Shown piece by piece: positions 38,773-53,452 of a stretch of DNA of 64,000 nt (positions are counted from its first letter, which is position 1; every line of letters begins with the position of its first letter). The notes below the pieces were generated by a model. It worked only from the letters and a program-made list of their open reading frames with translations, did not search any database and had not been told where the DNA came from. A program made the position numbers and the translations under genes. Source of the DNA: an uncultured Gemmatimonadaceae bacterium (GTDB lineage Bacteria > Gemmatimonadota > Gemmatimonadetes > Gemmatimonadales > GWC2-71-9); contig CAZPER010000011.1 of assembly GCA_964585655.1 (NCBI GenBank), positions 1,174-65,173 of the forward strand, read 5' to 3'.

Positions 38773-39816
38773 ATGATGCAGCAGCTGTTCGACCGGTCTC
38801 TCTTCTCCGTGGGCGAGGTGACCTACACCTGGAAGGACGTGATCCTCTTCGCCATGCTGAGCGGCCGGTGGCGGCCGCTGGAGCGGGCCATTCGGGAGGG
38901 GCTCGCCTGCGTCCGCCGCCTCGAGGAGGACGACATCGAGGAACCGGAGGAGGCGGTGGATGCCTGCGCCGCGGAGTTCCGCTATGAACGGGAGCTCATC
39001 ACCGCCGAGGAGACGGAGGCCTGGCTCGAGGAGCGGGGGGTCGAGACCTCGGAGTGGATGGAGTGGGTACGCCGCGAGACACTGCGCACCCTGTGGGCCG
39101 CGGAGCTGCCCGCCCTGGTCCTCCGGTTCCCCGCGGATGCGGCTGAGGTCGCCGAGGCGGCCACCGCGGACCTGCTCTGCTCCGGCAAGGGCGAGGCGTT
39201 TGCCAACGGACTGGCTGAACGGGCGGCCGCGACCGCCGCGCTGGAGGAGGCCGGCGAGGCGCTGGAGGTGGAGCTGCCCGCCGGCGCGGTGGGGCGGGTG
39301 CTGGACCTGCTCCCCGAGCTGGATCCGGACGAGACCGAAGCCACGCTGCTCCACCTCGCCGTGCTGGACCAGGGGCTGGCCCGGTTCAGGGAGATGGCCG
39401 CCACCCCGGAGCTCATCCACCGGGAGCTGGAGCTGGGCCGCCTGGAGTGGATCCGGCTGGATTGCCGGGTGATCCAGTTTCCGACCGAGGCGCTGGCCCG
39501 GGAGGCGGTGTTGTGCGTACGGGAGGACGGGATGGGGGTGGACGAGGTCGCCGAGAGCGCCCACGCCCAGGTCCACGAGATGCGTTTCTACCTCGGGGAG
39601 CTCGACCCCGACCTGCAGCCCCGGCTGCTCGCGGCCCTGCCCCAGGAGCTGATCGGGCCGGCCCCCTTCGAAGAGCAGTACGCCCTGTTCCTGGTCCTCG
39701 ACAAGGTGCTGCCGGACGAGCGGGCCCCCGACCTCCGCCGGGAGATCGAGCGCCGCGCGGTGGACCGGGCCGTGGCCGACCAGGTCTCCCGCCGGGTCCA
39801 GTGGCGGGCGGGCTGA
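38773..39816 (+). CDS. acidic cytoplasmic protein with a degenerate parvulin (PpiC)-like C-terminal domain; putative peptide-maturation/chaperone component
   Basis: 347 aa, no signal peptide, rich in E, A and L. The C-terminal segment VIQFPTEALAREAVLCVREDGMGVDEVAESA...YLGELDPDLQPRLLAALPQELIGPAPFEEQYALFLVLDKV follows the parvulin pattern (HIL..eA..i..G..F.elA...dLG.f....p.f..a.f.l..Ge.s.Pv.t.fGyhli). The catalytic-type His residues are not evident. Confidence 0.6.
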   Translation: MMQQLFDRSLFSVGEVTYTWKDVILFAMLSGRWRPLERAIREGLACVRRLEEDDIEEPEEAVDACAAEFRYERELITAEETEAWLEERGVETSEWMEWVRRETLRTLWAAELPALVLRFPADAAEVAEAATADLLCSGKGEAFANGLAERAAATAALEEAGEALEVELPAGAVGRVLDLLPELDPDETEATLLHLAVLDQGLARFREMAATPELIHRELELGRLEWIRLDCRVIQFPTEALAREAVLCVREDGMGVDEVAESAHAQVHEMRFYLGELDPDLQPRLLAALPQELIGPAPFEEQYALFLVLDKVLPDERAPDLRREIERRAVDRAVADQVSRRVQWRAG

Positions 39817-39969: not shown

Positions 39970-42900
39970 GTGGAGAGCAGCGAGCTCGAGAGCATCCTGC
40001 AGCAGGTGAGCATCCTCCAGTTCCTCCCGCCGGACGTGCGGGACCTGGTCGAGGCCAGCTTCGTGTCGGCCAGCTACAGCTTCGGCCAGGAGATCATCCG
40101 CGAGGGTGAGCCGGCCGACGCGCTGTACGTGCTGGTCGCCGGCCGCGCGCGGGTGCTCAAGCGCTCCGAAACCGGCGATGAAATCTCCCTCGGGACCATC
40201 CGGGTCGGCGAGACCTTCGGCGAGGGGGACCTGCTGGGCTCCGGCACCCGGGCCACCACGGTGCGGGCGAGCTCCGACGTGGAAGTGCTCCGCCTCGACC
40301 AGTCGGTCGTGGATGCGCTGATCCGGAAGCGGCCCGAGATCCGGCAGTACCTCGAACTCCAGTCCCGCCACCGCCACCTCCAGGGCTTCTTCCGGCAGTT
40401 CGCGGTCTTCGCCACGCTCCCTCCCGAGGCGACCGCGGCCCTGCTCCGGGCGCTGGAGCCGGTGGAGGTGCCGGCCGGCACCGAGATCGTCCGTGACGGG
40501 GACCCGCCCGGCCCCATGTACATCATCGAGGACGGGCGCTGCCGGGTCCACATCGGGGTGGACGGCCGCCGGCGCAACGTGGCCTTCCTCCGGCGGGGGG
40601 AGTTCTTCGGCGAGTTCTCGGTGTTCCGCGACATGCCCCGGACCGCGACGGTGGAGTCGGTCACCCCCTGCCGCCTGCTCCGGCTGACGCAGGAGACCTA
40701 CCGGGGACTGCTCGACGAGTACCCCGATTTCCGCGACGCGATCGAGGCGCGGATCGCGCAGTACGACTTCCGGCACACGGCGCAAATCCCCATCGACCTC
40801 TTCCAGGAGCTGCTCCCCGCCGACGCCGCGCCCCGGAACACCGTCGGCCACGACCAGATCGACGAGGACGTGAGCGGGCCGGCGCGGGGGCGGGCGGAGG
40901 CGGAGGAGGCGCCCTTCGCCGACGAGGAGGGACGGTTCGTCAAGCACCGGAAGCGGATCCGGCGCTTCCCGCACCTGTGGCAGATCGACGAGATGGACTG
41001 CGGCGCCACCAGCCTGGCCATCATCTGCCGCCACTTCGGGAAGGCGATCAGCCTGGCCCGCATCCGGCAGCTGGTCCACACCGGCCTCGATGGCGCCAGC
41101 CTGCGCGCCATCTGCCAGGGCGCCACCGAGCTCGGGCTGGCCGCGCGGGCCGTGAAGGCCTCGGCCACCAACGTCCACCAGATGCCGCTGCCGGCCATCG
41201 TGCACTGGGAGGGCAACCACTGGGTGGTGCTGTACGACGTGGGGAAGGACCACGTGCGGGTCTCGGACCCCGGGGTGGGGAAGCGGCGGATCCCGCGGGC
41301 GGAGTTCGACGCGAAGTGGACCGGGTACGCCGCACTGTTCGACTACACCATCGAATTCGAGAAGAACGAGGAGAGCCGGCTGGGCATCGCCTGGCTGCTG
41401 CCGTTCTTCAAGCCGTTCGTGGGGCTGATCGCGCGCTGCACCGCGCTGGCGCTCATCGTGAGCGCGCTGCAGATGGTGATCCCGGTGTTCACCCAGGTGA
41501 TCGTGGACCGGGTGCTGGTGGAGGGCGACCTCCAGCTGCTCAACATCCTGATCATCGGGATGGGGCTGGTGATCCTGATGTCGCTGGTCGCCTCCCTCGT
41601 GGAGCGCTACCTGCTGGCGTGGATGGCGGTGCGGATCGACTCGGGCACCCTCGACTTCCTCACCCGGCGGCTGCTCAGCCTGCCGATGTCCTACTTCAAC
41701 AGCCGCCGCACCGGCGACATCCAGCGGCGGCTGGCGGGCATCTGGCAGGTGCGCGAGTTCCTGGTGGAGCATGGCAGCGCCGGGCTCACCGCCGCCGCCC
41801 AGCTGCTCTCGGCCCTGGCGCTGATGCTGGTGTACAGCCCCACGCTCACGCTGGTCTTCCTGGCCACCGTGCCGGTGTTCGTAGTCGTCCTCAAGGTGAG
41901 CGCCAACTGGCTCTATCCGCTCTACGCCGAGCTGGAGGAGACCTACGGCAAGTACCAGTCGTTCCAGATCGACGCCATCAAGGGGATCGAGACGGTCAAG
42001 TCGCTGGGGGCGGAGTTCTCCTTCCGCGACCTCATGCTGCGGCAGTTCAACAGCGTGGCGCGCAGCCGGTTCAAGGCCGACTACACCCTGATGACCTACA
42101 ACGGGGTGGTGCACAGCATCACCCTGGTCTCGATGGTGCTGTTCCTGCTGGTGGGCGCCCGGGAGGTGCTGGCGGGCCACATGTCGATCGGCGCGCTGGT
42201 GGCCTTCAACGCCCTGGTGGCGCTGGCCAACGCCCCGATCCTGACGCTCATGTACCTGTGGGACGACATGCAGCAGGCGGCGGTGTACCTGAACCGGCTG
42301 GACGACATCTTCCAGCAGGTGCCGGAGCAGGGGCACGACCGCTCCCGGCTGCTGCCGGTCCGCTCGCTCGAGGGCCGGCTCGGGGTACGCCACATGAGCT
42401 TCCGGTATGGCGGGCCGGAGTCGCCGGCGATCCTCGACGACCTCAGCTTCGAGGTGCCGCCCAACACGATGGTCGCCATCGTGGGCCGGAGCGGCTCGGG
42501 GAAGACCACGCTGATCAAGATCCTGGCCGGGCTGCTGGAGCCGACCGAGGGCACCATCCTGTACGACGGGATCGACCTCAAGACGCTCAACTACCGCGAG
42601 CTGCGCCGCAAGATCGGCTTCGTGCTGCAGGAGAACCACCTCTTCGACGATACCGTGGCCCGCAACATCGGCTTCGGCGAGGAGGAGCCGGACATGGACA
42701 AGGTGATGTGGGCGGCCCAGGTCGCCAACGCGCGCGAGTTCATCGAGCGGCTGCCGCTGGGCTACGACACCCGCATCGGGGAATCGGGGCTGGGCCTCTC
42801 CGGCGGCCAGCGGCAGCGGGTGGCGATCGCGCGGGCGATCTACAACCGGCCCCCGATCCTGATCTTCGACGAGGCCACCAGCGCGCTCGACACCGAGAGC

Positions 42901-43104
42901 GAGCGGGCGGTGAAGGAGAACATCGACCAGCTACTCGAGGGGCGGACCTCGTTCGTGATCGCCCACCGGCTCTCCACCGTCCGCGACGCCGATCTCATCC
43001 TGGTGCTGGAGAAGGGCAAGCTGGTCGAGCAGGGCACGCACGACGACCTGATGCGCCGCCAGGGGCTGTACTACTTCCTGGTCAGCCAGCAGCTGCAGCT
43101 CTAG
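39970..43104 (+). CDS. peptidase-containing ABC transporter (PCAT): two cNMP-binding domains + C39 double-glycine peptidase + ABC TMD + NBD
   Basis: GTG start, 1044 aa. cNMP phosphate-binding cassettes FGEGDLLGSGTRATTVRA and FFGEFSVFRDMPRTATVES. C39 domain QIDEMDCGATSLAIICRHFG ... GNHWVVLYD ... VSDPG (Cys/His/Asp). Six-helix TMD. Walker A GRSGSGKTT, signature LSGGQRQR, Walker B ILIFDEATSALD. Confidence 0.92.
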   Translation: MESSELESILQQVSILQFLPPDVRDLVEASFVSASYSFGQEIIREGEPADALYVLVAGRARVLKRSETGDEISLGTIRVGETFGEGDLLGSGTRATTVRASSDVEVLRLDQSVVDALIRKRPEIRQYLELQSRHRHLQGFFRQFAVFATLPPEATAALLRALEPVEVPAGTEIVRDGDPPGPMYIIEDGRCRVHIGVDGRRRNVAFLRRGEFFGEFSVFRDMPRTATVESVTPCRLLRLTQETYRGLLDEYPDFRDAIEARIAQYDFRHTAQIPIDLFQELLPADAAPRNTVGHDQIDEDVSGPARGRAEAEEAPFADEEGRFVKHRKRIRRFPHLWQIDEMDCGATSLAIICRHFGKAISLARIRQLVHTGLDGASLRAICQGATELGLAARAVKASATNVHQMPLPAIVHWEGNHWVVLYDVGKDHVRVSDPGVGKRRIPRAEFDAKWTGYAALFDYTIEFEKNEESRLGIAWLLPFFKPFVGLIARCTALALIVSALQMVIPVFTQVIVDRVLVEGDLQLLNILIIGMGLVILMSLVASLVERYLLAWMAVRIDSGTLDFLTRRLLSLPMSYFNSRRTGDIQRRLAGIWQVREFLVEHGSAGLTAAAQLLSALALMLVYSPTLTLVFLATVPVFVVVLKVSANWLYPLYAELEETYGKYQSFQIDAIKGIETVKSLGAEFSFRDLMLRQFNSVARSRFKADYTLMTYNGVVHSITLVSMVLFLLVGAREVLAGHMSIGALVAFNALVALANAPILTLMYLWDDMQQAAVYLNRLDDIFQQVPEQGHDRSRLLPVRSLEGRLGVRHMSFRYGGPESPAILDDLSFEVPPNTMVAIVGRSGSGKTTLIKILAGLLEPTEGTILYDGIDLKTLNYRELRRKIGFVLQENHLFDDTVARNIGFGEEEPDMDKVMWAAQVANAREFIERLPLGYDTRIGESGLGLSGGQRQRVAIARAIYNRPPILIFDEATSALDTESERAVKENIDQLLEGRTSFVIAHRLSTVRDADLILVLEKGKLVEQGTHDDLMRRQGLYYFLVSQQLQL

Positions 43105-43110: not shown

Positions 43111-44328
43111 ATGCCCCGCACCGACCTGGACGCCTCCGCCGAGTTCCTCGACACCGAGCCCCCCCACTGGGCGGCGCGGGGCCTGGCCTGGGTCATCATC
43201 AGCCTGGTCCTGATCGGGGTGATCGCCGCCGTCGTGGTGCAGGTGCCGGAGACGGTAAGCGGGCGCTTCACCCTGGCCCCGGCCGACGGGGCCGACCCGG
43301 TCCGGGTGCGCAAGGATGGCATCGTCACCGCGGTCACGGTGCGGGAGGGAGACACGGTGCCGGCCGGCGCCACCCTGGTGATGCTCCGGTCCCCCTCCCT
43401 CAGCGATCGCTCCGGGGAGCGGCGGACGATCGAGACCCAGCGCCGGGCCGACCAGGACCGGCTCCGGATCCTCAGCAGCCAGTATCAGACCCGGAAGCGC
43501 GCCGACGAGGCCGAAGCCCGGCGGCTGCGGGCCCGGATGGAGTCGCTCAAGCGGCTGATCACCTCGAAGGAGCACCGGCTGGCGCTGATGCGGGAACTGG
43601 CCGACAGCGCGAGTTCCGGCTTCCGGAGCGGCGCGGTCAATCGGCTGGAGGTGGCCCGCATGGACCTGGAGGTGTCCACGCTGCAGGAGGAGGTCCAGAA
43701 TGCCGGCAACGACCTCGAGGATGCCGCCGCCGACCTCGCCCGGCTGGGTCGGGATGGCCAGGCGCGGGACCTCGAGTATGAGGACGCGCGCCGGAGCCTG
43801 GAGGAGTCGGTGGAAACGGCGGGCATCCGGATCGAGGCGCTGGGCCGCGACCTCGAGGGGGTGACGGACGCCGGCCTCGCCGTCTCCGCCCCCTGCCGGG
43901 GCACGGTGCTGCGGCTCCATGTGAGCGCCGCCGGGGCCCTGGTCCGCGAGGGGGAGGTCATCAGCGAGATCGCCTGTGCCGGCGCGCGGCTCCAGGCCGA
44001 GTTCGCGGTCCCGCAGAGCGGCCTCCCCCAGATTCGCGCGGGACAGCGGGTGAAGCTCCGCTACGACGCCTTCCCCTACCAGCGCTACGGCATCCGTTTC
44101 GGCCAGGTGCGCTGGGTGGGGCCCTCCAGCCTGGGCGACCGCGACAGCAGCTTCCGGGCGGTGGTGGACCTGGCCGAGGATTCGATCCGGGTGCGGGGCC
44201 AGGAGCGGGCGCTGCAGGCGGGGATGCAGGGACAGGCGGACGTGGTGGTGGGGCGGCGGTCGCTGGTGAGCTATGCCATCGAGCCGATCCGGGCGCTGCG
44301 GGAGAACTTCCGGGACCCGTCGCCGTGA
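43111..44328 (+). CDS. HlyD-family membrane-fusion / secretion adaptor protein
   Basis: N-terminal TM helix GLAWVIISLVLIGVIAAVVV, lipoyl-like beta segments, a long coiled-coil (RRLRARMESLKRLI...LQEEVQNAGNDLEDA), and a C-terminal beta-barrel ending GRRSLVSYAIEPI. Confidence 0.88.
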   Translation: MPRTDLDASAEFLDTEPPHWAARGLAWVIISLVLIGVIAAVVVQVPETVSGRFTLAPADGADPVRVRKDGIVTAVTVREGDTVPAGATLVMLRSPSLSDRSGERRTIETQRRADQDRLRILSSQYQTRKRADEAEARRLRARMESLKRLITSKEHRLALMRELADSASSGFRSGAVNRLEVARMDLEVSTLQEEVQNAGNDLEDAAADLARLGRDGQARDLEYEDARRSLEESVETAGIRIEALGRDLEGVTDAGLAVSAPCRGTVLRLHVSAAGALVREGEVISEIACAGARLQAEFAVPQSGLPQIRAGQRVKLRYDAFPYQRYGIRFGQVRWVGPSSLGDRDSSFRAVVDLAEDSIRVRGQERALQAGMQGQADVVVGRRSLVSYAIEPIRALRENFRDPSP

Positions 44329-45329
44329 GCGTCCATGGCCACGGCAGTCCCGATCGCCATCCCGAATGGCGCGCGACCCTCGACGACTTCCAGTCGGGCG
44401 ACGAGGCGATGCGGCGCTGCCTCGACCTGGCCCGCGTCGCCGCCCGGACCGACCTCCCCACCCTGATCCTGGGCGAGACCGGCACCGGCAAGACCCTGCT
44501 GGCGCGGGCGCTGCACAACTCCTCCCGCCGGGCCCGCGGGCCGTTCATCGCCTTCAATTCCGCCGCGCTCTCCGACACCCTCCTCGACAGCCAGCTCTTC
44601 GGCCACGAGCGGGGCGCGTTCACCGGCGCGGACCGGCGGGTCAAGGGAAAGTTCGAGCTGGCCGACGGCGGCACCCTCTTCCTTGACGAGATCGCGGACA
44701 TGAGCCCCTCGGCACAGGCCAAGATCCTCCGCGCCGTGGAGTACGGGGAGTTCGAGCGGCTGGGGAGCGAGCAGCTGCTGGACGCGGATGTCCGGCTGGT
44801 GACGGCCACCCACCTGCCGATCACCCGGTACAAGGAGACGGAGCACTTCCGGAAGGACCTGTTCTACCGGATCAGCGGCATCACCCTCCGGCTCCCCGCC
44901 CTGCGGGAGCGGCCCAACGACCTGGCCTCCCTGATGGCGGCAGAGATCGCCGCGGCGAGCGCGCAGCTGGGCAAGCCGATCGTGGGGTTGAGTCGGCATG
45001 CGGCGGACCGGCTGCTGGGCTACGGCTGGCCCGGGAACCTGCGGGAGCTCAAGCGGGTGATCCACGCCGCCGTGGCGATCGCCGAGGGGGACGTCATCGA
45101 GGACACCGCCATCCTGCTGGAACCGGAGGCACTCGACGCGCCGCCAGCGGTTGCGCCCCGGCCCCGTGCCCCGGACGCGGCGGCGGCCGACGGGGACCTG
45201 TCGCTCCGGAGCGCCGAGCGCCGGCACATCGCGGCGGTGGTGGCGCGCTTCGAAGGCAACAAGCGGCGCGCCGCCAAGGCGCTCGGCCTCGCGCGCTCGA
45301 CCCTGGACCGCAAGCTCGCCGAAAGTTAG
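44325..45329 (+). CDS. sigma54-dependent transcriptional activator (bEBP) lacking an N-terminal sensory/receiver domain
   Basis: GTG 44325 overlaps the hlyD TGA. Walker A GETGTGKTLLARALH, the sigma54-contact loop GAFTGA, Walker B GGTLFLDEI, and the C-terminal Fis-type HTH NKRRAAKALGLARSTLDRKL. Only about 20 aa precede the AAA+ core. Confidence 0.9.
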   Translation: MSVHGHGSPDRHPEWRATLDDFQSGDEAMRRCLDLARVAARTDLPTLILGETGTGKTLLARALHNSSRRARGPFIAFNSAALSDTLLDSQLFGHERGAFTGADRRVKGKFELADGGTLFLDEIADMSPSAQAKILRAVEYGEFERLGSEQLLDADVRLVTATHLPITRYKETEHFRKDLFYRISGITLRLPALRERPNDLASLMAAEIAAASAQLGKPIVGLSRHAADRLLGYGWPGNLRELKRVIHAAVAIAEGDVIEDTAILLEPEALDAPPAVAPRPRAPDAAAADGDLSLRSAERRHIAAVVARFEGNKRRAAKALGLARSTLDRKLAES

Positions 45330-45338
45330 ACCCTCGCT

Positions 45339-45355
45339 GGTAGCGCGCCGCTACC
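45339..45355. promoter_or_regulatory. 7-3-7 palindrome (candidate UAS for the bEBP, or the bEBP gene terminator)
   Basis: GGTAGCG-cgc-CGCTACC, 10 nt after the bEBP stop and about 100 nt upstream of the -24/-12 element. Confidence 0.35.
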
Positions 45356-45450
45356 CCTGGCCCAGTTCTGGACCCACGCCACCGGCGTCCCACCGCTCCG
45401 TCCGCAGGCAACACGCTGTGAATGCGGCAGTTGACTCGAGCGGCGCCGTG

Positions 45451-45466
45451 TGGTCCGGGGCTTGCC
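45451..45466 (+). promoter_or_regulatory. sigma54 (-24/-12) promoter
   Basis: TGGTCCGGGGCTTGCC versus the consensus TGGCAC-N5-TTGCW. The GG and GC dinucleotides and the full TTGC are present at the exact consensus spacing. It lies 59 nt upstream of ATG 45525 and directly downstream of a bEBP gene. Confidence 0.7.
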
Positions 45467-45524
45467 TCTACCACGGATCATCACGCTGCACCGTCGTACC
45501 CCTTACCCCACACCGGAGGTTACC

Positions 45525-45647
45525 ATGGCGGACAAGAAGAAGATCAAGGACCTGCCCAAGAAGTCCGTGAGCAGCAAGAAGGCCGGCGCGGTCACCGGTG
45601 GCGCCAAGAAGAAGGCCCCCTCGCTCCTCCGTCGGCGCGCGAACTGA
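45525..45647 (+). CDS. small cationic peptide, candidate double-glycine-leader precursor 1 (40 aa)
   Basis: GGAGG 6 nt upstream of the ATG. Sequence MADKKKIKDLPKKSVSSKKAGAVTGG/AKKKAPSLLRRRAN, with 14 K/R and 2 D. A V-x-G-G site sits next to a C39 exporter. It lies downstream of the sigma54 promoter. The track shows it only as the tail of a 65-aa ORF (45450..45647). Confidence 0.6.
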   Translation: MADKKKIKDLPKKSVSSKKAGAVTGGAKKKAPSLLRRRAN

Positions 45648-45666
45648 TTCGCCGCGGGTGCCCGAA

Positions 45667-45696
45667 GCGTGGGCGGCCCCCTGGGGCCGCCCGCGC
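45667..45696 (+). terminator. strong GC hairpin between the two peptide genes (attenuator / processing-site candidate)
   Basis: GCGTGGGCGGCCCC-ct-GGGGCCGCCCGCGC, about 14 bp including one G-U. There is no adjacent U-tract (CTTTT sits 10 nt downstream). Confidence 0.5.
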
Positions 45697-45726
45697 GCTC
45701 ACCCGACTTTTCCGCATGAGCCCGCC

Positions 45727-45894
45727 ATGACAGAGCGCAAGCCGCGTAAGACCCGATCCACCCGGACCAAGGACGGGGAGATTGTGCGGCTGGAGGACCT
45801 GGCCCCGCCGGAGAACGTCCGGGGCGGGGTCCGGAAGCGGCTGTTCGGCGAAGAGACCCCCCGGCGCCAGCCGCGCAAGCCCAGCGGCGGCTGA
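45727..45894 (+). CDS. small basic peptide, candidate double-glycine-leader precursor 2 (55 aa)
   Basis: ATG 45727, with no clear SD. Sequence MTERKPRKTRSTRTKDGEIVRLEDLAPPENVRGG/VRKRLFGEETPRRQPRKPSGG. It shares the [KR][IL][KE]DL-P...V-x-GG-x-[KR]K[KR] pattern with peptide 1. GC-rich third positions. Confidence 0.45.
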   Translation: MTERKPRKTRSTRTKDGEIVRLEDLAPPENVRGGVRKRLFGEETPRRQPRKPSGG

Positions 45895-45927
45895 CCCTTC
45901 GGGGGATCGCGGCGGACACCGCTGGGC

Positions 45928-48900
45928 CTACGGGCGGCGCTCCAGCATCAGCATCGCGCGGCCGCGCGCATTGGCGATCCGCGGCGTGAACCTCGGGTCC
46001 GCCCCCTCCCATGCCTTCACCAGCCGCTGGTAGTGATAGGCGGCGCTGTCCCGCTGGCCGGCGGCCTCGAACGCCTCGGCCAGGGCTTCGGTCAGGTCGG
46101 TATGGGTGACGTACAGGTTGGACCCCTCGAACATCCCGCGCAGCGCGCTCTGCAGGATCGTTACTGCCTCACGCGGCCGCCCCAGCCGGGTGAGGGTCCG
46201 GCCCAGGACCAGGTTGGCCCGGGTGTAGCCGACGTTGGGAGAGAGGATCGAGCGGCGGAACAGCTGGACCGCCTCTCCATCCCGTCCGCGCGCCAGGGCC
46301 AGCAGCCCTTCCACGTAGTAGTGCAGCCGCTGGTCCCGCGCGAAGGCACTCTGCCGGCCCAGCACCCGGATGGTATCGGCCAGGCCGGCGAGCCGGGTGG
46401 TGTCTCCCTGAGCGGCGAGCACCCCCGCGGCGTGGGTCAGCGCCCAGACGCGGTTCCGGGAAACGGCCGAGGAATCCTCCCCGCTGACCCGCCCCCGGGC
46501 GACGGAGTCGAAGAGCGCCGCCGCGGCCCGATAGGCACCCTGCTCGAATAGCACCTGGGCCTCGAGCAGCGCGGTGGTGGGCGCGGCCCCGGGCCGGCTC
46601 TGTTCGCCCCGGGTGGCGCGGTAGCGGCGCGCGGCCACGAGCGCCTCCTCCAGCCGCCCCTGCTGGCGGAGCACCACCGCCAGCATCCACGACGCCTCGA
46701 CGCGCTCATCCGGGTCGGCGGCATGCAGCTGTCCCCGCACCACCTCCGCGGCGGTCGCGAAGTCCCAGCGCCAGAGTTGATTGGCCGAGTGATAGCGCCA
46801 GGTCTTCGGGTCTCTCGGCAGGAGGCTGTCCGCACGCGCCAGCGCGGAATCCGCCGCCGCGAACGCCCCGGACTGGGCCAGCAGCATTGCCAGCGTGCGC
46901 CACGCGACCCCGGACCCCGGCTGCAGCCGGGTCCACCGCCGGCCGACGGCGACCGCCGCTCCAATGGAGTCCTCCTGGATGTAGGAGGAGTAGAGGGCGG
47001 GCATCGCCTCGCAGGCCAGGCAGCGCGGGGTGCTCCCCCGGAGCCCGAGCGAGTCCCGCGCAATGACGGTCTCGAGCGGGCCGTGCGCCGCCTCGTAGTC
47101 CCCGGCGAGGATCGCCGCCTGCCCGGCCATCAGGTACCCCTCCAGTTCCGCGGGGTAGCGGACCATGAGCGTTTCCGCGATGGCCCGCAGGGAGGGGGAG
47201 GTGTTGACGAACGCCCAGGCGGCGTTGACCAGCAGCCGTTCCCGGTCGCTGGCCCGCCGCGCCAGGTCCACCGCGCGCCGGAGCCGCGCTACCGTCTCGG
47301 TGCGCAGCCCGGGCGAGGTGCTCAGGGCGTAGAAGAACTGCGCCATGGCGAACGCCGAGTCGGCCTTGAGCGCTTCCTGGAATTGCCGCTCGGCGTCGGC
47401 ACGCTCCCCCTCGTAGTAGAGCCGGAGCCCCGCCTCGTACAGCTGGTAGGCCCGCACCGAGCGGGTGGAAACGTCCGCCAGCGAGCCGGCCAGCGGCGTG
47501 CCGCCGAGATCGCGGAGCAGGCGGGCGGTGCCGCTGTCGGCCAGCAGGAAGAGGTTCTCCCCCTCGACCGTGTACGCTTCGAGCACGGCGCCGCTGCCCA
47601 GGTCGACGCGGCGGAGGTCGAGCCGCATCCGTCCGGGCGCGAGGTCGTAGAGGGCGCCATCCACCAGCTCCGTGGCGCCCGATTGCCGCGCGGCGGCCAC
47701 GCTCGCGGCGGCGGTGTCGGCGGGTTCCGGAAGCTGGCGCATCACCTCCACCATGCGTGCGTTGCTCACCACCCTGAGCCCCCGGGTCCGGGCCAGGTTG
47801 GTGGCCAGCATGTCCGCCATCGGCGCGCCCAGCGCGCCCGCGCCGCTGGCGGCGTAGTGGCTGATCCGGCCGACCGCCACCACCCGCTCCGGTGCAGGCA
47901 TCGCCGCGGAGCTGACCAGGTGGGCCCGCCAGACGTGTCTGGTCAGCGGCACCAGGAGCGCGGCGACCACGGCCACGAGTAGCCACCGAGCCCGGCGCCG
48001 CCTCGCCTGCGGTGGCGGCTCCGCCGGCGCCCCCAACCCCAAACCGCCGCCCACCGCCCATCCGCTGGTATGCCCCAGGTCGAGGGGACCGCTCGGACGG
48101 CTGGGGCGTGAGGGGGGATCCGCAGTGGGGGGTGGTGCCGGGGCGCTGGCTGGCGTGGGTTCCGGCGGGGGTGAAGCCGCCGGCGGGGGCGACGTGGGAA
48201 CTGCCGCCGGCGTGGCCGGGCGCTGCCCGGTGCGGAGCTGCTCCGCCAGCGCCACCACCTCCCGGTCGGGAGCGAGGTCCAGCTCCTGCCGCACCAGCGT
48301 CTCGTAGACGCGCGCATGCTGCAGCGCCCCGGCCACGTCCCCGCCGGCGGCCAGCGAACGCATCAGGCGGGCGGCGACCTGGGCATTCATCGGGTCCTGG
48401 GCCGCCAACTTCCTGAGCCACCCCACCGCACCGCGATGGTCGCCTCGCTCGCTGCACCGGGCCGCCAGCTGCTCCAGCAGGTCGGACCATTCATGGGCCA
48501 GTCGGCTCCGCTGCTCCTCAGCCCAGCGCTCGAAGGGATCCGCCTCCGGCAGGTGGAAGCCGTCCAGGAACGGCCCGCGATAGCACTCGGCGGCGCCCTC
48601 CAGGTCCCCCGCGGCGAGGGTGTCATGGAACTCGGCGTAGTCGCTGGTGACTTGATCGGGGTTGAGGCGCAGGTCCTTGAGGCCGAGGAGTGCCTCGTCC
48701 GATCCGAGGTCCCGGCGGAGCGCGTAGAGCGCCTGGGTCAGGGCGCGACGGCCGCGTTCCTCATCGGCGTCGGGCCAGAGGTAGGCGATCAGGGCGTCGC
48801 GCGTTGCGCCACGATCCCCCGCCACGGCCAGAAGGGCGAGGAGGGCCAGCCGGCGGGGCTGGGCCGCCGCCCCGCTGAGCGGGCGACCCTCACCCGTCAC

Positions 48901-48933
48901 GAACAGCCCGCCTAAGACGTTGATCCTGAGCAC
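45928..48933 (-). CDS. membrane-anchored SARP/BTAD-family transcriptional regulator with a large extracytoplasmic TPR domain
   Basis: GTG start. The N-terminus has an OmpR-like winged helix plus BTAD (LRINVLGGLFV...LALLALLAV...ALIAYLWPD...YRGPFLDGF...ALQHARVYETLVRQELDLAP). Then a Pro-rich linker, one TM helix (WLLVAVVAALLVPL), and about 650 aa of TPR-like helical repeats. Confidence 0.85.
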   Translation of the reverse strand: MLRINVLGGLFVTGEGRPLSGAAAQPRRLALLALLAVAGDRGATRDALIAYLWPDADEERGRRALTQALYALRRDLGSDEALLGLKDLRLNPDQVTSDYAEFHDTLAAGDLEGAAECYRGPFLDGFHLPEADPFERWAEEQRSRLAHEWSDLLEQLAARCSERGDHRGAVGWLRKLAAQDPMNAQVAARLMRSLAAGGDVAGALQHARVYETLVRQELDLAPDREVVALAEQLRTGQRPATPAAVPTSPPPAASPPPEPTPASAPAPPPTADPPSRPSRPSGPLDLGHTSGWAVGGGLGLGAPAEPPPQARRRRARWLLVAVVAALLVPLTRHVWRAHLVSSAAMPAPERVVAVGRISHYAASGAGALGAPMADMLATNLARTRGLRVVSNARMVEVMRQLPEPADTAAASVAAARQSGATELVDGALYDLAPGRMRLDLRRVDLGSGAVLEAYTVEGENLFLLADSGTARLLRDLGGTPLAGSLADVSTRSVRAYQLYEAGLRLYYEGERADAERQFQEALKADSAFAMAQFFYALSTSPGLRTETVARLRRAVDLARRASDRERLLVNAAWAFVNTSPSLRAIAETLMVRYPAELEGYLMAGQAAILAGDYEAAHGPLETVIARDSLGLRGSTPRCLACEAMPALYSSYIQEDSIGAAVAVGRRWTRLQPGSGVAWRTLAMLLAQSGAFAAADSALARADSLLPRDPKTWRYHSANQLWRWDFATAAEVVRGQLHAADPDERVEASWMLAVVLRQQGRLEEALVAARRYRATRGEQSRPGAAPTTALLEAQVLFEQGAYRAAAALFDSVARGRVSGEDSSAVSRNRVWALTHAAGVLAAQGDTTRLAGLADTIRVLGRQSAFARDQRLHYYVEGLLALARGRDGEAVQLFRRSILSPNVGYTRANLVLGRTLTRLGRPREAVTILQSALRGMFEGSNLYVTHTDLTEALAEAFEAAGQRDSAAYHYQRLVKAWEGADPRFTPRIANARGRAMLMLERRP

Positions 48934-49123
48934 GTTATGGCAGGTGACTTCCGGGTGACATCGGGGCGACGAGGGCCGGAGATCGGCGTGAGTTGCGGTT
49001 CTATACTAGGCGTCGTTCACCCGGCCGGCAACCGATTCCGGCCCGCGCCTTCGGGCAACGCCAGGAATTGTCGGGCGGTCCAGGGCAACGACGCATTACC
49101 CCCTGATGTGGAAGGAGTCACCG

Positions 49124-50739: not shown

Positions 50740-51294
50740 ATGGCGCGGCAACTGGACGAGATCGTGACCGAGCTGGAACAGGCCCGGCACCAGGCGGGCG
50801 CGCTGCTGGCGACGACGCCCGAGGCGGCGTTCACGCGCCGCCCGGCGCCGGGGCACTGGTCGGTGGCGGAGTGTCTCGATCACCTGAACCTGACGACGCT
50901 GATCTTCCTGCCGCTCCTCGACGCGGCCCTCGCGGAGGCCCGTCAGCTCCCGCCGGCGGGGGCGCGACGGTTCCGGCGCGACTTCACCGGCTGGCTCCTC
51001 TGCACGATGTCGGAGCCGCCCATCCGGCACCGGGTGGCCACGACCGCGCTCTTCACCCCGGCGCAGGTCGGCAGCCGGGACGAGGTCCACGCCGCGTACC
51101 AGCGGCTGCAGGAGGAGCTGATCGAGCGGGTGCGGCGGTCGGACGGGCTGGCGCTGGACCGGGTGACGATCATCTCCCCGTTCAATGCGCGAATCCGCTA
51201 TCACGCCTATTCCTGCTTCCGGGTGCTCGCAGCGCACCAGCGGCGGCATCTCTGGCAGGCGGAGCAGGTGCAGCGGAGGCTGCGCACGGCCTAG
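50740..51294 (+). CDS. DinB-family (DinB_2) four-helix-bundle protein
   Basis: PAPGHWSVAECLDHL and a C-terminal HQRRHLWQAEQV motif, typical of the DinB/YfiT-like His triad. Confidence 0.72.
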   Translation: MARQLDEIVTELEQARHQAGALLATTPEAAFTRRPAPGHWSVAECLDHLNLTTLIFLPLLDAALAEARQLPPAGARRFRRDFTGWLLCTMSEPPIRHRVATTALFTPAQVGSRDEVHAAYQRLQEELIERVRRSDGLALDRVTIISPFNARIRYHAYSCFRVLAAHQRRHLWQAEQVQRRLRTA

Positions 51295-51355
51295 CGCGTC
51301 CCCTTGCCCGCCCCGCCGGGATCGGCGATCATCGGGGACCCTGACCGGACTCGCC

Positions 51356-53452
51356 ATGCGTCGCCTCGTGTTGCTCGCCCTTGCCGCCTTCGCCCCCGGC
51401 GCCCTGGTTGCCCAGGGCTCCGCCCCCCGCCGGATCGCGATCGAAGACCTGCACCGCTTCCGGGATGTCAGCGACCCGCAGCTCTCGCCCGAGGGCAACT
51501 GGGTGGCGTACACGGTGAGCGTCGCGGATCTGGGGGAGGACGGCACCGCCAGCGACCTGTGGATGACGAGCTGGGACGGCCGCGCCACGCTCCGGCTCAC
51601 CACCACGCCCTCCGCCAGCGAGCACACCCCGCGGTGGAGCCCCGACGGCCGCTACCTCGCCTTCCTGTCCGGCCGTGGCAACGAGGACGGGGTGGATCAG
51701 CTCTGGCTGCTGCCTCGCGCGGGCGGCGAGGCCGAACAGGTCACCCATCACCGGACCGGCGTCGCGGACTTCTCCTGGTCCCCGGCGGGGGACCGGCTGG
51801 CGCTGGTGATCGAGGATGGGGACTCCGTTGAGGTGCACGGGGTGTTCCCGCCGAAGCTGGATGACGCCGGCGCCGACCCCGGGATGGCGGACGCGGGGCC
51901 GCAGGCCCCGCGCGACAGCGCCAGCCGCAAGACCGCGCCACCGATCGTTATCGACCGGTACTACTTCAAGGAGGACTACGTCGGGTACGTGCGGCGGAAG
52001 CGGTCCCACCTCTACTTGCTGGAGCTGGCCAGCCGCTCCGTGGAGCAGATCACCTTCGGCGAATTCGACGAGTACCTCCCGGCCTGGTCGCCGGACGGCC
52101 GGTACCTGTCCTTCACCAGCAAGCGCTCCGGAGATGACCCTGACCGGGGCAACAACTTCGACATCTGGATCATGCCGGCGTCGAAGGGAGTCGTGCCGCG
52201 CCAGGTGACGACCTTCGCCGGTCCCGACGGCGCCGCCGACTGGGAGGGCCCGGCGGTGTGGAGTCCCGACGCGCGGACCATCGCCTACCTCCAGGGTGGG
52301 GCTGACTCTCTGATCTACTACGCCGGTCCGCGGCTGGCGCTCACCCCGTGGGGCGGCACCGGACGGCCCACCGTGCTCACCGAGCAGCTCGACCGCCACG
52401 TGACCCAGCCCACCTGGTCCCCCGATGGCCGCCAGCTCTACTTCCTGCTCGAGGACGACCGCTCGCGGTACCTGGCGCGGATGCCGGCCGCGGGCGGTGC
52501 CATCGAGCGGCTCGCCGGGGAGGGCGGTGTCGTCCACAGCTACAGCGTGAGCCGCGATGGGAGGATCGCCTACCTCCTGGACACGCCGGCGCGGCCCTCC
52601 GAGGTCTATGTGCTGGGACCGGAAGGGCCGCGGATGCTTTCGCGGCAGAACGACAGCCTCCTGGCGATGCTGCGGCTGGCCCCGGTCGAGGACATCAGCG
52701 TGAAGAGCCCGGACGGCACCACGGTCAACGGCTTCCTGATCCGGCCGCTCGACTACGCCGCCGGGACCCGCTACCCGACGGTGCTCACCATCCATGGCGG
52801 GCCGGTGAGCCAGTTCCAGCGCGAGTTCGATTTCTACTGGCAACTGCTCGCCGCCGAGGGGTACGCGGTGGTGGCGATGAACCCGCGCGGAAGTTCGGGG
52901 CGGGGGGAGAAGTATTCACTCGCCATCTGGGCCGACTGGGGCAACAAGGACGCGAAGGACGTGATCGCGGGAGTGGACCACGCGATCCGGATCGGGGTGG
53001 CGGATCCGCAGCGACTCGGCGTGGGCGGATGGAGCTACGGCGGCATCCTGACCAACTACGTCATCAGCCAGGACCAGCGGTTCAAGGCGGCGGTGAGCGG
53101 CGCGAGCATCTCCAACATCCTCGCGGGGTATGGCACCGACATGTACGTCCGGGAGTACGAGTCCGAACTCGGGCCGCCGTGGAAGAACACCCAGAACTGG
53201 CTGCGGCTGTCGTCCCCGTTCCTCAAGGCGGACCGGATCCGGACCCCGACGCTGTTCCTCTGCGGCGAAAAGGACTTCAATGTCCCGCTGCTCAACTCGG
53301 AGCAGATGTACCAGGCGCTCCGGAGCCTCAGCGTCCCGACCAGGCTGGTCATCTACCCGGGGCAATTCCACGGCATCGACAAGCCGAGCTACCAGCGGCA
53401 CCGCTACGAGCAGTATCTCGCCTGGTACGCGGAGTACCTGCGGACGCAATAG
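51356..53452 (+). CDS. secreted S9-family serine peptidase (prolyl oligopeptidase / acylaminoacyl-peptidase type)
   Basis: Start ATG 51356 (MRRLVLLALAAFAPGALVAQ). N-terminal PD40-type propeller (SPDG repeats). C-terminal alpha/beta hydrolase with nucleophile elbow GVGGWSYGG, then ...GEKDFNVP... and ...GQFHG. Confidence 0.9.
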   Translation: MRRLVLLALAAFAPGALVAQGSAPRRIAIEDLHRFRDVSDPQLSPEGNWVAYTVSVADLGEDGTASDLWMTSWDGRATLRLTTTPSASEHTPRWSPDGRYLAFLSGRGNEDGVDQLWLLPRAGGEAEQVTHHRTGVADFSWSPAGDRLALVIEDGDSVEVHGVFPPKLDDAGADPGMADAGPQAPRDSASRKTAPPIVIDRYYFKEDYVGYVRRKRSHLYLLELASRSVEQITFGEFDEYLPAWSPDGRYLSFTSKRSGDDPDRGNNFDIWIMPASKGVVPRQVTTFAGPDGAADWEGPAVWSPDARTIAYLQGGADSLIYYAGPRLALTPWGGTGRPTVLTEQLDRHVTQPTWSPDGRQLYFLLEDDRSRYLARMPAAGGAIERLAGEGGVVHSYSVSRDGRIAYLLDTPARPSEVYVLGPEGPRMLSRQNDSLLAMLRLAPVEDISVKSPDGTTVNGFLIRPLDYAAGTRYPTVLTIHGGPVSQFQREFDFYWQLLAAEGYAVVAMNPRGSSGRGEKYSLAIWADWGNKDAKDVIAGVDHAIRIGVADPQRLGVGGWSYGGILTNYVISQDQRFKAAVSGASISNILAGYGTDMYVREYESELGPPWKNTQNWLRLSSPFLKADRIRTPTLFLCGEKDFNVPLLNSEQMYQALRSLSVPTRLVIYPGQFHGIDKPSYQRHRYEQYLAWYAEYLRTQ

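What the first reader, a model, noticed from the sequence alone, without database searches (positions are those of the whole stretch)
45525..45894. Two unannotated lysine/arginine-rich peptide genes sharing a DL-P...V-x-GG motif
The sequences are:
- Peptide 1 (40 aa): MADKKKIKDLPKKSVSSKKAGAVTGG|AKKKAPSLLRRRAN.
- Peptide 2 (55 aa): MTERKPRKTRSTRTKDGEIVRLEDLAPPENVRGG|VRKRLFGEETPRRQPRKPSGG.

Both contain [KR][IL][KE]-D-L-x-P, then a hydrophobic residue at -4 and Gly-Gly, followed by a [KR]-K-[KR] cluster. That is the geometry C39 peptidases cleave.

The ORF track reports them only as the tails of longer, implausible ORFs (45450..45647 and 45598..45894). Gene callers would probably miss them.

The leaders are atypically basic compared with classical double-glycine leaders, which are acidic and amphipathic. 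The predicted cores are 14 and 21 aa. Peptide 2 also ends in GG.
Basis: partly seen in the sequence, partly recalled or inferred. Interest (0 to 1): 0.8.

Follow-up and report, generated by a model that had tools for sequence, protein, structure and literature searches.

The report
Two exported double-glycine peptide genes
Two tiny genes in a soil Gemmatimonadota genome are real and encode the likely cargo of a neighbouring peptide-cutting export pump; the same gene set recurs in at least five bacterial phyla, and I found no description of it.

Summary
Both ORFs are real genes at the stated coordinates: peptide 1 at 45525-45647 (40 aa) and peptide 2 at 45727-45894 (55 aa). Evidence: GC3 0.93/0.89, dN/dS 0.2-0.4, and orthologues conserved across phyla.

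They follow a conserved same-strand module: a SurA/PpiC-like protein, a C39-peptidase ABC exporter with two cNMP-binding domains, HlyD, and a sensor-less sigma-54 activator. A sigma-54 -24/-12 promoter sits at 45451-45465.

- **Peptide 1** belongs to a mostly multi-copy family. The leader is conserved (..K[IV]KDLP.K.V..KKA..VKGG) and the 5-32 aa cores are hypervariable.
- **Peptide 2** belongs to a second, usually single-copy family. Its leader is shorter (..L.DLAP...V[KR]GG) and is followed by a conserved K-x-x-F-G-[EQ] motif.

Neither family matches a Pfam or NCBIfam model, and no paper I could search describes the system.

The claim that gene callers would miss these genes is wrong: both are called in public assemblies. 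The trailing GG of peptide 2 and the basic cluster after the GG of peptide 1 are not conserved.

Verdict: a new variant of a known kind, of moderate to high interest. The function of the mature peptides is unknown.

The parts
38773..39816 (+). 347-aa cytoplasmic SurA/PpiC (parvulin)-like protein, first gene of the conserved module. Probably a chaperone or partner protein for the peptides or the exporter.
   Evidence: It sits directly upstream of the exporter in nearly all related loci. Weak hit to TIGR04500, E 2e-7, below cutoff. A family profile hits SurA parvulin domains, E 7.5e-4. 8 of 16 members hit PF13145 Rotamase_2.
39970..43104 (+). 1044-aa peptidase-containing ABC exporter (PCAT): two cNMP-binding domains, a C39 peptidase, the ABC membrane domain and the ATPase.
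   Evidence: Pfam domains. Both cNMP domains keep the FGE...R[AT]AT phosphate-binding cassette. The C39 domain aligns with LahT150 (6mpz), ComA and PCAT1, with catalytic Q338, C344, H417 and D433 in place. Best NCBIfam hit is TIGR03796 at 536.6 bits, below the 853.3 cutoff.
43111..44328 (+). 405-aa HlyD-family periplasmic adaptor.
   Evidence: Pfam HlyD_3 and HlyD_D23, and TIGR01843. Conserved position in the module.
44325..45329 (+). 334-aa sigma-54 enhancer-binding protein: AAA+ domain plus Fis-type HTH, with no N-terminal sensor domain.
   Evidence: PF00158 at E 3.4e-60, and PF02954. GAFTGA loop present, and only about 25 residues precede the AAA+ domain. It is adjacent to the peptides in 38 non-redundant related loci plus this window.
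45451..45465 (+). Candidate sigma-54 -24/-12 promoter TGGTCCGGGGCTTGC, about 60 nt upstream of the peptide 1 start.
   Evidence: GG-N10-GC with TTGC at -12. An equivalent element lies within 400 nt after the activator stop in 35 of 47 loci, about 10-fold above the background density.
45515..45519 (+). Shine-Dalgarno GGAGG for peptide 1.
   Evidence: 65 of 72 type 1 genes across loci have an SD-like motif.
45525..45647 (+). Peptide 1 (type 1 precursor, 40 aa). Leader MADKKKIKDLPKKSVSSKKAGAVTGG (45525-45602), predicted core AKKKAPSLLRRRAN (45603-45644), then the stop codon.
45667..45696 (+). 13-bp G+C hairpin between the two peptide genes. Possibly an attenuator or an mRNA 3'-end stabiliser.
   Evidence: Fold of 45640-45730: -45.3 kcal/mol, z -2.4. 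Long hairpins recur just upstream of type 2 genes in many Gemmatimonadota loci, with z below -2 in 10 of 30.
45727..45894 (+). Peptide 2 (type 2 precursor, 55 aa). Leader MTERKPRKTRSTRTKDGEIVRLEDLAPPENVRGG (45727-45828), post-GG part VRKRLFGEETPRRQPRKPSGG (45829-45891), with the conserved K-R-L-F-G motif at 45835-45849. No Shine-Dalgarno.
51185..53452 (+). 755-aa S9 (prolyl-oligopeptidase family) peptidase with PD40 propeller repeats. A possible lineage-specific accessory gene, separated from the peptides here by an inserted block.
   Evidence: Pfam. It lies directly after the peptide genes in L001, L002 and L011/L019, and about 2 kb after the activator in L064. It is absent from most other loci.

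Best explanation
Both ORFs are genuine, translated small genes of a Gemmatimonadota bacterium. They are the cargo genes of a conserved module.

**Proposed mechanism.**
1. The adjacent sensor-less sigma-54 activator drives transcription from the -24/-12 promoter at 45451-45465.
2. The precursors are recognised through their N-terminal leaders by the cytoplasmic C39 cysteine-peptidase domain of the exporter, possibly helped by the SurA/PpiC-like protein encoded first in the module.
3. The leader is cut off after Gly-Gly.
4. The C-terminal part is pumped out through the ABC exporter, the HlyD adaptor and an unidentified outer-membrane channel.
5. The exporter's two cyclic-nucleotide-binding domains make export, and perhaps cleavage, conditional on a nucleotide second messenger.

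**The two peptides.**
- Peptide 1 is one of a mostly multi-copy family. The leader is conserved and the very short core (5-32 aa, here AKKKAPSLLRRRAN) is hypervariable. This is the pattern of diversifying secreted effectors, either signals or antimicrobials.
- Peptide 2 is a second, normally single-copy companion. Its conserved block spans the GG and continues into K-x-x-F-G-[EQ]. It lacks a Shine-Dalgarno and often follows a strong hairpin. It is therefore probably made at a lower level and serves a conserved signalling or regulatory role rather than acting as a variable effector.

**Shown versus inferred.**
- Shown here: gene reality, family membership, synteny, an intact protease active site, and promoter-motif enrichment.
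- Inferred: cleavage at GG, export, cNMP gating, sigma-54 dependence in vivo, and the roles of the mature peptides.
For: **Gene reality.**
- GC3 is 0.93 and 0.89.
- dN/dS is 0.21-0.38.
- The peptide 1 ORF has 0-1 nt differences against 23-30 in the upstream 200 nt.
- Both are called as proteins in public assemblies.

**Family evidence.**
- 69 type 1 proteins in the 5.8-billion-protein set.
- 185 clusters (representatives at 50% identity) at E <= 1e-3 among 1.84 billion proteins.
- In 80 related genomic loci, 99 type 1 and 49 type 2 hits.

**Synteny.**
- Of 38 non-redundant loci with an adjacent activator and at least 1.5 kb downstream, 34 carry type 2 and 29 carry type 1.
- The 3 loci with no hit to either HMM turned out to hold divergent copies.
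- 11 loci without the activator had no HMM hit downstream on the module's strand. A looser pattern scan found leader-like ORFs in three of them.

**Precursor pattern.**
- Type 1 leader identity is 0.48 against 0.09 for the core.
- The K..FG-type motif is present in all 27 type 2 sequences aligned.

**Protease.** The C39 domain is closest to LahT150, ComA and PCAT1, with Q/C/H/D aligned.

**Regulation.**
- The activator has the GAFTGA loop.
- A sigma-54 -24/-12 element occurs in 35 of 47 loci, a 10-fold enrichment.

**cNMP domains.** Both keep FGE...R[AT]AT cassettes.

**Expression asymmetry.**
- An SD-like motif occurs in 65 of 72 type 1 genes against 12 of 30 type 2 genes.
- Hairpins precede type 2 genes.

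**Precedents.**
- HetC of Nostoc is a cNMP-domain PCAT needed for development whose substrate is unknown (PMC10986499).
- A TIGR04500 SurA-like protein (MirC) is an essential partner protein in a RiPP cluster that also encodes a PCAT (PMC13097080).
Against: **No experimental data.** Every organism carrying the module in my set is an uncultured MAG.

**The leaders depart from the canonical double-glycine leader.**
- The window's leaders are basic, not acidic.
- In type 1, position -15 is K/R and a Pro sits at -16.
- Type 2 has R/P at -7/-8 and no hydrophobic residue at -12.

**Type 2 may not be a simple cargo.** Its conserved block runs straight across the GG. It might not be cleaved, or might act before or without export.

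**No downstream partners.** No immunity gene, receptor kinase or modifying enzyme is conserved in the module, so no fate for the exported peptides is evident. Some type 1 cores are only 5-7 residues long.

**The promoter evidence is incomplete.** 12 of 47 loci, including all four Verrucomicrobiota loci, lack a sigma-54 element by my criterion.

**The exporter fits no named subfamily.** It scores below the curated cutoffs of all NCBIfam PCAT models.
Confidence: 0.75

Rival explanations
1. Peptide 2 (type 2) is not ordinary cargo but a regulator. One version: a small anti-activator or feedback element that binds the sensor-less sigma-54 activator, or the exporter, inside the cell. It would be removed by cleavage and export when the exporter is switched on, coupling export capacity to transcription, as FlgM export does for sigma-28. 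Peptide 1 would still be cargo.
For: - Type 2 is single-copy in 30 of 38 loci.
- Its conserved block spans the GG and includes an invariant-style K-x-x-F-G motif in all 27 sequences across phyla. That argues for a conserved partner, and the only conserved proteins in the module are intracellular or membrane-bound.
- The activator has no sensor domain, like PspF, which is controlled in trans (established knowledge).
- The peptides and the activator tend to occur together. The 11 loci without the activator had no HMM hit downstream on the module's strand, although a looser scan found leader-like ORFs in three of them.
- Type 2 genes usually lack an SD and often follow a hairpin, consistent with a low-abundance regulator.
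Against: - There is no direct evidence of any interaction.
- A conserved extracellular signal with a conserved, unlinked receptor would give the same conservation pattern.
- The tails of type 2 are variable and rich in P/K/R, like secreted peptides.
Confidence: 0.2
2. The peptides are RiPP precursors whose cores are post-translationally modified before export. The modifier would be the SurA/PpiC-like protein acting with an unlinked enzyme, or the neighbouring S9 peptidase trimming them. They would not be plain unmodified peptides.
For: - The first gene of the module is a distant relative of TIGR04500. A characterised member, MirC, is required for graspetide maturation in a cluster that also encodes a PCAT (PMC13097080).
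- The leader/core conservation pattern is that of RiPP precursors.
- An S9 peptidase follows the peptides in several Gemmatimonadota loci, and both cores contain Pro.
Against: - No ATP-grasp, radical-SAM, lanthionine or cyclodehydratase gene is conserved next to the module in the gene tables of L001, L002, L012 and L014.
- Cores are hypervariable, with no recurring Cys/Ser/Thr/Asp/Lys pattern.
- The TIGR04500 hit is far below cutoff: 30.6 bits against 180.
- The S9 peptidase is absent from most loci.
Confidence: 0.12
3. The ORFs are not functional peptide genes. They would be chance ORFs in G+C-rich intergenic DNA, regulatory upstream ORFs, or part of a small RNA.
For: - Both are very short and of low complexity.
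- Peptide 2 has no Shine-Dalgarno.
- The peptide 1 ORF is unusually conserved at the nucleotide level as well.
Against: - Amino-acid-level conservation extends across five phyla with diverged DNA.
- dN/dS is 0.2-0.4.
- GC3 is about 0.9 only in these frames.
- 185 family clusters exist in public proteins.
- No Rfam family matches; the only match is sub-threshold, 21 bits against a gathering score of 47.
Confidence: 0.02

Closest known systems
Double-glycine (GG) leader peptides processed by peptidase-containing ABC transporters: ComC/ComA, colicin V/CvaB, CtA/PCAT1, LahT substrates, class II bacteriocins and microcins
   Same: - An N-terminal leader ending in Gly-Gly, with a hydrophobic residue at -4.
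- Encoded beside a PCAT with an intact C39 Cys/His/Asp site and a HlyD adaptor.
- Conserved leader and variable core, often in tandem copies.
   Different: - The leader is Lys/Arg-rich in this lineage, with a conserved D-L-P motif and a Pro inside the leader.
- Hydrophobic positions -12 and -15 are only partly kept in type 1 and are lost in type 2.
- Cores are far shorter (5-32 aa) than class II microcins.
- No immunity gene and no two-component sensor.
- The exporter carries two cNMP-binding domains, and expression appears sigma-54-dependent.
HetC of Nostoc PCC 7120, a cNMP-domain PCAT (PMC10986499)
   Same: - An N-terminal cyclic-nucleotide-binding domain fused to C39 peptidase and ABC exporter.
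- Proposed to export a regulatory peptide under control of a nucleotide ligand.
   Different: - HetC has one such domain and binds ppGpp in vitro. No GG-leader substrate gene lies near hetC, and its substrate is unknown.
- Here there are two domains with canonical cNMP cassettes, and candidate substrates are encoded immediately downstream.
- Orthology to HetC was not tested.
NHLP/Nif11-leader RiPP systems with NHLM-type exporters (TIGR03796/03797/03794; PMC2887384), and the rosaritide cluster with its TIGR04500 partner protein MirC (PMC13097080)
   Same: - The best-scoring NCBIfam model for the exporter is TIGR03796.
- A SurA/PpiC-like protein distantly related to TIGR04500 is encoded beside the PCAT.
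- Leaders end in GG.
   Different: - All scores are below the curated cutoffs.
- Leaders are 26-34 aa, not the 70-80 aa protein-like NHLP/Nif11 leaders.
- The peptides give no hit to any NCBIfam precursor model.
- No ATP-grasp or other modifying enzyme is present in the module.
PF14406 Bacteroid_pep, ribosomally synthesised GG-leader peptides of Bacteroidetes
   Same: Short precursors with a Lys-rich leader ending in GG. 3 of 31 type 1 members give weak hits, best E 0.012.
   Different: - The hits are sub-threshold and involve a minority of members.
- The window's peptide 1 gives no hit.
- The taxa and gene neighbourhood differ.

Membership tests
Double-glycine leader peptide (PCAT substrate) | Gly-Gly (or Gly-Ala/Ser) at positions -2/-1 of the cleavage site | tested here: met
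   G25 and G26 are invariant in 31 and in 58 type 1 sequences. In 27 type 2 sequences G34 is invariant and G33 is at 90% or more.
Double-glycine leader peptide (PCAT substrate) | Hydrophobic residue at -4 | tested here: met
   V23 is nearly invariant in type 1. Type 2 has V/I at -4 in most sequences, with P in two.
Double-glycine leader peptide (PCAT substrate) | Further hydrophobic positions at -7, -12 and -15 of an amphipathic, usually acidic leader helix (consensus recalled from the literature on ComC, LagD and LahT substrates) | tested here: inconclusive
   Type 1 has A at -7 (nearly invariant) and V/I/L/M at -12, but K/R at -15 and P at -16. Type 2 has R at -7, P at -8 and K/E at -12. The window's leaders have net charges +6 and +3.
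Double-glycine leader peptide (PCAT substrate) | Genetic linkage to a PCAT whose C39 domain keeps the catalytic Cys, His and Asp and the oxyanion Gln | tested here: met
   The linkage is conserved in 35 of 38 loci by HMM, and in the remaining 3 by pattern.
Double-glycine leader peptide (PCAT substrate) | Demonstrated cleavage after GG and export | not testable with these tools
   Requires a biochemical assay or peptidomics.
NHLP / Nif11 leader precursor families | Long (about 70-80 aa) nitrile-hydratase-like or Nif11-like leader matching the NCBIfam/TIGRFAM precursor models | tested here: not met
   No NCBIfam model is hit by either window peptide, or by 31 type 1 and 27 type 2 members, at E <= 1, apart from single spurious hits. 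Leaders are 26-34 aa.
NHLM-type bacteriocin exporter (TIGR03796 equivalog) | Score at or above the curated cutoff of 853.3 bits | tested here: not met
   536.6 bits. The model also covers only residues 332-1038, so the two cNMP-binding domains lie outside it.
TIGR04500 PpiC-related peptide maturation system protein (MirC type) | Score at or above the cutoff of 180 bits, and co-occurrence with a graspetide ATP-grasp ligase | tested here: not met
   30.6 bits, E 2e-7, partial match. No ATP-grasp gene appears in the gene tables of related loci. A SurA/parvulin-like relationship itself is supported weakly.
Class II microcin | Mature peptide of tens of residues with a dedicated adjacent immunity gene (definition recalled from the microcin literature, e.g. 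PMC10233263) | tested here: not met
   Cores are 14 and 21 aa here and 5-32 aa across type 1. No conserved small membrane-protein gene accompanies the peptides in the module.
Sigma-54-dependent operon | -24 GG / -12 GC promoter with correct spacing, plus an adjacent enhancer-binding protein with a GAFTGA loop | tested here: met
   TGGTCCGGGGCTTGC at 45451-45465. 35 of 47 loci have such an element, a 10-fold enrichment. GAFTGA is present. In vivo dependence is not testable here.

The most novel reading that the evidence does not exclude
The module is a previously unrecognised, second-messenger-gated peptide secretion and signalling circuit shared by several soil-dwelling phyla.

- Peptide 2, with its universally conserved K-x-x-F-G motif, would be the circuit's control element. 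It would be either an exported anti-activator that holds the sensor-less sigma-54 activator in check until the cNMP-gated exporter removes it (FlgM-like logic), or a universal autoinducer.
- The hypervariable type 1 peptides would be strain-specific outputs.

If so, these loci would also give the first natural substrates for cNMP-domain PCATs of the HetC kind.
Probability: 0.15. Interest if true: 0.85.

Novelty: new variant of a known kind. Interest (0 to 1): 0.6.

Why it matters
- **Unexplored peptide secretion.** PCAT-exported GG peptides are well studied in Firmicutes and Enterobacteria, but hardly at all in Gemmatimonadota, Acidobacteriota, Methylomirabilota or Verrucomicrobiota, which dominate soils and are mostly uncultured.
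- **A ready-made test system.** The module pairs an exporter that should respond to a cyclic nucleotide with obvious candidate substrates next door. HetC, the one studied cNMP-domain PCAT, has no known substrate. These loci could be used to test how a nucleotide ligand gates peptide processing and export.
- **New families for annotation and mining.** The two peptide families (at least 185 clusters for type 1 alone) are absent from Pfam and NCBIfam and are labelled hypothetical or unnamed. Models for them would improve annotation and RiPP/bacteriocin mining.
- **An experimental handle.** The conserved type 2 peptide with its K-x-x-F-G motif is a defined, short, synthesisable ligand with which to search for a partner.

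Tried and rejected
**Led nowhere**
- AlphaFold2 of the 347-aa SurA/PpiC-like protein from a single sequence gave mean pLDDT 42.6. The model was unusable and no fold search was run.
- A search for a conserved activator-binding palindrome between the activator stop and the promoter found no shared element. The window has GGTAGCGCGCCGCTACC at 45339-45355, but it is not conserved.
- The sigma-70 promoter scan found nothing. The intrinsic-terminator scan found only two minus-strand chance-level sites.
- No tandem repeats.
- No Rfam family. PtaRNA1 at 21 bits against a gathering score of 47 is the hairpin, a chance match.

**Considered and rejected**
- A profile-profile comparison of type 1 against type 2 aligned only 7 columns (xVKGGx, probability 8.7%). 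Common ancestry of the two families is not demonstrated. However, Verrucomicrobiota variable peptides use the short type-2-like leader spacing (VRDLKPSKDAKGG), which hints at it.
- The overlapping ORFs 45503..46012 (-), 45422..45730 (+), 45450..45647 and 45598..45894 are rejected as the real genes. Their codon-position GC does not fit, and their N-terminal extensions are not conserved.

**Literature**
Eight searches found no description of this module or of these peptide families. They turned up only the HetC and rosaritide papers as partial parallels. The library excludes most subscription journals, so prior description elsewhere cannot be ruled out.
Full report
**1. The observation**

The window is 70.6% G+C. 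Reading 45000-46400 gives:
- an ATG at 45525 preceded by GGAGG (45515-19), with a stop at 45645-47. This encodes MADKKKIKDLPKKSVSSKKAGAVTGGAKKKAPSLLRRRAN.
- an ATG at 45727 with a stop at 45892-94. This encodes MTERKPRKTRSTRTKDGEIVRLEDLAPPENVRGGVRKRLFGEETPRRQPRKPSGG.

GC by codon position is 0.51/0.46/0.93 for peptide 1 and 0.70/0.55/0.89 for peptide 2. That is the pattern of real genes in this genome, where GC3 is 0.81-0.97. The overlapping alternative ORFs lack it.

**2. Surroundings**

On the same strand, immediately upstream:

| Coordinates | Product |
|---|---|
| 38773-39816 | 347-aa protein with no Pfam hit and a weak TIGR04500 hit |
| 39970-43104 | 1044-aa protein: two cNMP_binding domains, Peptidase_C39, ABC_membrane, ABC_tran |
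| 43111-44328 | HlyD adaptor |
| 44325-45329 | Sigma-54 activator made of only the AAA+ domain and a Fis-type HTH |

- The activator keeps the GAFTGA loop and has about 25 residues before the AAA+ domain, so it has no sensor domain.
- Both cNMP domains keep the FGE...R[AT]AT phosphate-binding cassette. Its meaning rests on established knowledge of the CAP/PKA family.
- The C39 domain's best solved relatives are LahT150 (6mpz, E 1.1e-17), ComA and PCAT1. The QxxxxxC, NHW and DP motifs align.
- About 125 nt after the activator stop lies TGGTCCGGGGCTTGC (45451-65). It has the GG-N10-GC spacing and the TTGC of a sigma-54 promoter.

**3. Related sequences**

*Public proteins.* Peptide 1 is an already-called 40-aa protein on 86 public contigs, with an 81%-identical 39-aa relative. 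Peptide 2 has 95%- and 89%-identical called relatives of 55 and 54 aa. So gene callers do find both.

*Close relatives.* Contigs carrying peptide 1 show the same gene order.

*A more distant contig.* L001 has seven small genes after the activator. These are the orthologues of peptides 1 and 2 plus five further peptides. The five share the leader KK.KDL[SP]KK.V..KKA..VKGG but have unrelated C-terminal parts.

*Profile searches with these leaders.*
- 69 unnamed or hypothetical small proteins were found.
- In an exhaustive search of 1.84 billion cluster representatives, 185 clusters scored at E <= 1e-3.

*Genomic scan.* A scan of one genome per species with the exporter's N-terminal half found 429 relatives. 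The best 80 come from Gemmatimonadota, Acidobacteriota (including Thermoanaerobaculia), Methylomirabilota/Rokubacteria, Binatia and Verrucomicrobiota. The window's own lineage is there: L015 is 96% identical and titled Gemmatimonadetes MAG.

*Synteny.* tblastn shows the order SurA/PpiC-like protein - exporter - HlyD - activator in nearly all of them.

**4. Two peptide families**

HMM scans of six-frame fragments of all loci show two families sitting directly after the activator on the same strand.

*Type 1 (peptide 1)*
- 0-7 copies per locus.
- M1, G25 and G26 are invariant. L10, A20, V23 and K24 are nearly invariant.
- Mean pairwise identity is 0.48 over the last 20 leader residues and 0.09 over the first 10 residues after GG.
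- Core lengths are 5-32 aa.

*Type 2 (peptide 2)*
- Single-copy in 30 of 38 loci.
- D24, L25, P27, G34 and G41 are invariant. L22, G33, K37 and F40 are at 90% or more.
- A [KQ]-x-x-[FL]-G motif (KRLFGE, KLRFGE, KLLFGQ and so on) occurs after the GG in all 27 sequences aligned.

*Co-occurrence*
- Of 38 non-redundant loci with an adjacent activator and at least 1.5 kb of downstream sequence, 34 have type 2, 29 have type 1 and 28 have both.
- The three loci with no hit to either HMM contain divergent copies found by pattern.
- Eleven loci lacking the activator had no HMM hit downstream on the module's strand. A looser pattern scan found leader-like ORFs in three of them: L067, L077 and L082.

*Relationship between the families*
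V-x-G-G) corresponds to the most conserved positions of both families.
- The spacing differs, and a profile-profile comparison aligns only xVKGGx.
- Verrucomicrobiota variable peptides use the short, type-2-like spacing (VRDLKPSKDAKGG).

*Database status.* Neither family matches Pfam or NCBIfam. The only hint is a sub-threshold match of 3 of 31 type 1 members to PF14406, the Bacteroidetes GG peptides.

**5. Selection and expression signals**

- dN/dS between the window and orthologues in L001, L016 and L002 is 0.21-0.38 for both peptides.
- In close relatives the peptide 1 ORF has 0-1 nucleotide differences. The one seen is at a third codon position. The 200 nt upstream have 23-30 differences.
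- A sigma-54 -24/-12 element with at least 8 of 10 consensus positions lies within 400 nt after the activator stop in 35 of 47 loci. That is 2.07 per kb against 0.21 per kb overall. None was found in the four Verrucomicrobiota loci.
- An SD-like motif precedes 65 of 72 type 1 genes but only 12 of 30 type 2 genes. The window's peptide 2 has none.
- A 13-bp G+C hairpin (45667-45696) separates the two genes. Comparable hairpins precede type 2 genes in many Gemmatimonadota loci.

Together these suggest abundant type 1 and scarce type 2 product. That is an inference.

**6. The first gene of the module**

- Its family profile hits SurA parvulin domains (E 7.5e-4).
- 8 of 16 members hit PF13145.
- The window protein weakly hits TIGR04500.
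- No ATP-grasp or other modifying enzyme is conserved here.
- It has no recognisable signal peptide by eye.

I therefore infer a cytoplasmic chaperone or partner role, perhaps on the invariant L-P / A-P bond of the leaders. This is speculative.

**7. Mechanism and rivals**

The best-supported account has these steps:
1. Sigma-54-dependent transcription of the peptide genes.
2. Leader recognition and cleavage after GG by the C39 domain.
3. Export through the exporter, HlyD and an outer-membrane channel.
4. Control by a nucleotide ligand through the two cNMP domains.

Type 1 peptides would be diversifying secreted effectors. Type 2 would be a conserved companion with a regulatory or signalling role.

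The rivals are:
- type 2 as an intracellular or exported regulator of the sensor-less activator;
- modified RiPP precursors;
- non-genes.

The last is excluded by sections 1, 3 and 5. The first two remain open.

**8. Comparison with what is known**

The peptides work like double-glycine leader substrates of PCATs. They meet the GG, -4 and linkage criteria. They differ in several ways:
- leader chemistry and the internal Pro;
- very short cores;
- absence of immunity or sensor genes;
- a cNMP-domain exporter;
- sigma-54 control.

The only studied cNMP-domain PCAT I found is HetC of Nostoc. It binds ppGpp and has no known substrate (PMC10986499). Eight literature searches found no description of this module. 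The searchable library is incomplete.

**9. Verdict**

The claim about gene callers is wrong, and two of the noted details are incidental.
- It is a new variant of a known kind: two uncurated GG-peptide families in a conserved, apparently uncharacterised cNMP/sigma-54-controlled export module across at least five phyla.
- Interest is 0.6. The most novel reading not excluded is an export-coupled regulatory circuit centred on peptide 2, at about 15% probability.

Noticed in passing
window 45928-51294, compared with L002, L011 and L019: In some close relatives (92-96% identical genes) the S9 peptidase follows peptide 2 after about 100 nt. The window and other relatives carry a block of about 5.3 kb in between. 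The block holds a 1001-aa SARP/BTAD-TPR regulator on the minus strand (45928-48933), a ~320-aa protein, a 63-aa ORF (called only in the related loci), a 145-aa globin-like protein and a DinB-family protein. This is an insertion/deletion polymorphism right next to the peptide genes.
   Followed up: partly
window 45667-45696; also upstream of type 2 genes in L012, L014, L021, L029, L038, L045, L060 and L076: A long perfect G+C hairpin sits between the last type 1 gene and the type 2 gene in many Gemmatimonadota loci, although the sequences differ. It resembles the read-through terminators found after structural genes in bacteriocin operons.
   Followed up: partly
all related loci: Type 1 genes almost always have a strong Shine-Dalgarno (65 of 72). 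Type 2 genes mostly do not (12 of 30, near the chance level for the loose pattern used).
   Followed up: partly
P0014, P0016, P0018, P0046, P0066; L001 9273-9419; L074, L075, L079: One type 1 core recurs behind quite different leaders and in different lineages: (R)GPGTQTED[DE].Y[VI]G(..RRR). Others recur too, such as ..LAANHNQTLR.. and ..SK[AT]RSEIS.TFA[RQ]NARA. So not all cores are hypervariable, and a few conserved cargo types exist.
   Followed up: no
L013 8219-8407, 10001-10132, 19048-19191: Three orphan type 1 genes with NHNQ-type cores are scattered over 11 kb, away from any exporter module. One lies directly upstream of a Ser/Thr kinase-TPR protein and a histidine kinase/response regulator pair.
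   Followed up: no
L010 1-3519, compared with the window: In this otherwise 96%-identical contig, the exporter is only 76% identical and the SurA/PpiC-like gene 35%. HlyD and the activator are 96% identical. This suggests a recombination breakpoint inside the module.
   Followed up: no
window 45339-45355: A perfect palindrome GGTAGCG-CGC-CGCTACC lies 12 nt after the activator stop and about 100 nt upstream of the sigma-54 promoter. It is a possible activator binding site or terminator, but it is not conserved in other loci.
   Followed up: partly
L037, L039, L056, L067, L072, L077, L082, L084, L085, L086 and L017: Some relatives have the SurA/PpiC-like protein, exporter and HlyD but no adjacent sigma-54 activator, and the HMM scan found no peptides downstream on the module's strand. 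L077 and L082 have a type-1-like gene on the opposite strand just after HlyD. A looser pattern scan also found a leader-like ORF after HlyD on the same strand in L067 and two more in L077.
   Followed up: partly
L012 10502-11416 and L014 10659-11573: In a second Gemmatimonadales lineage the peptide genes are followed by a class IV aminotransferase (Aminotran_4, the D-amino-acid/branched-chain type) and several small unknown ORFs, not by the S9 peptidase.
   Followed up: no
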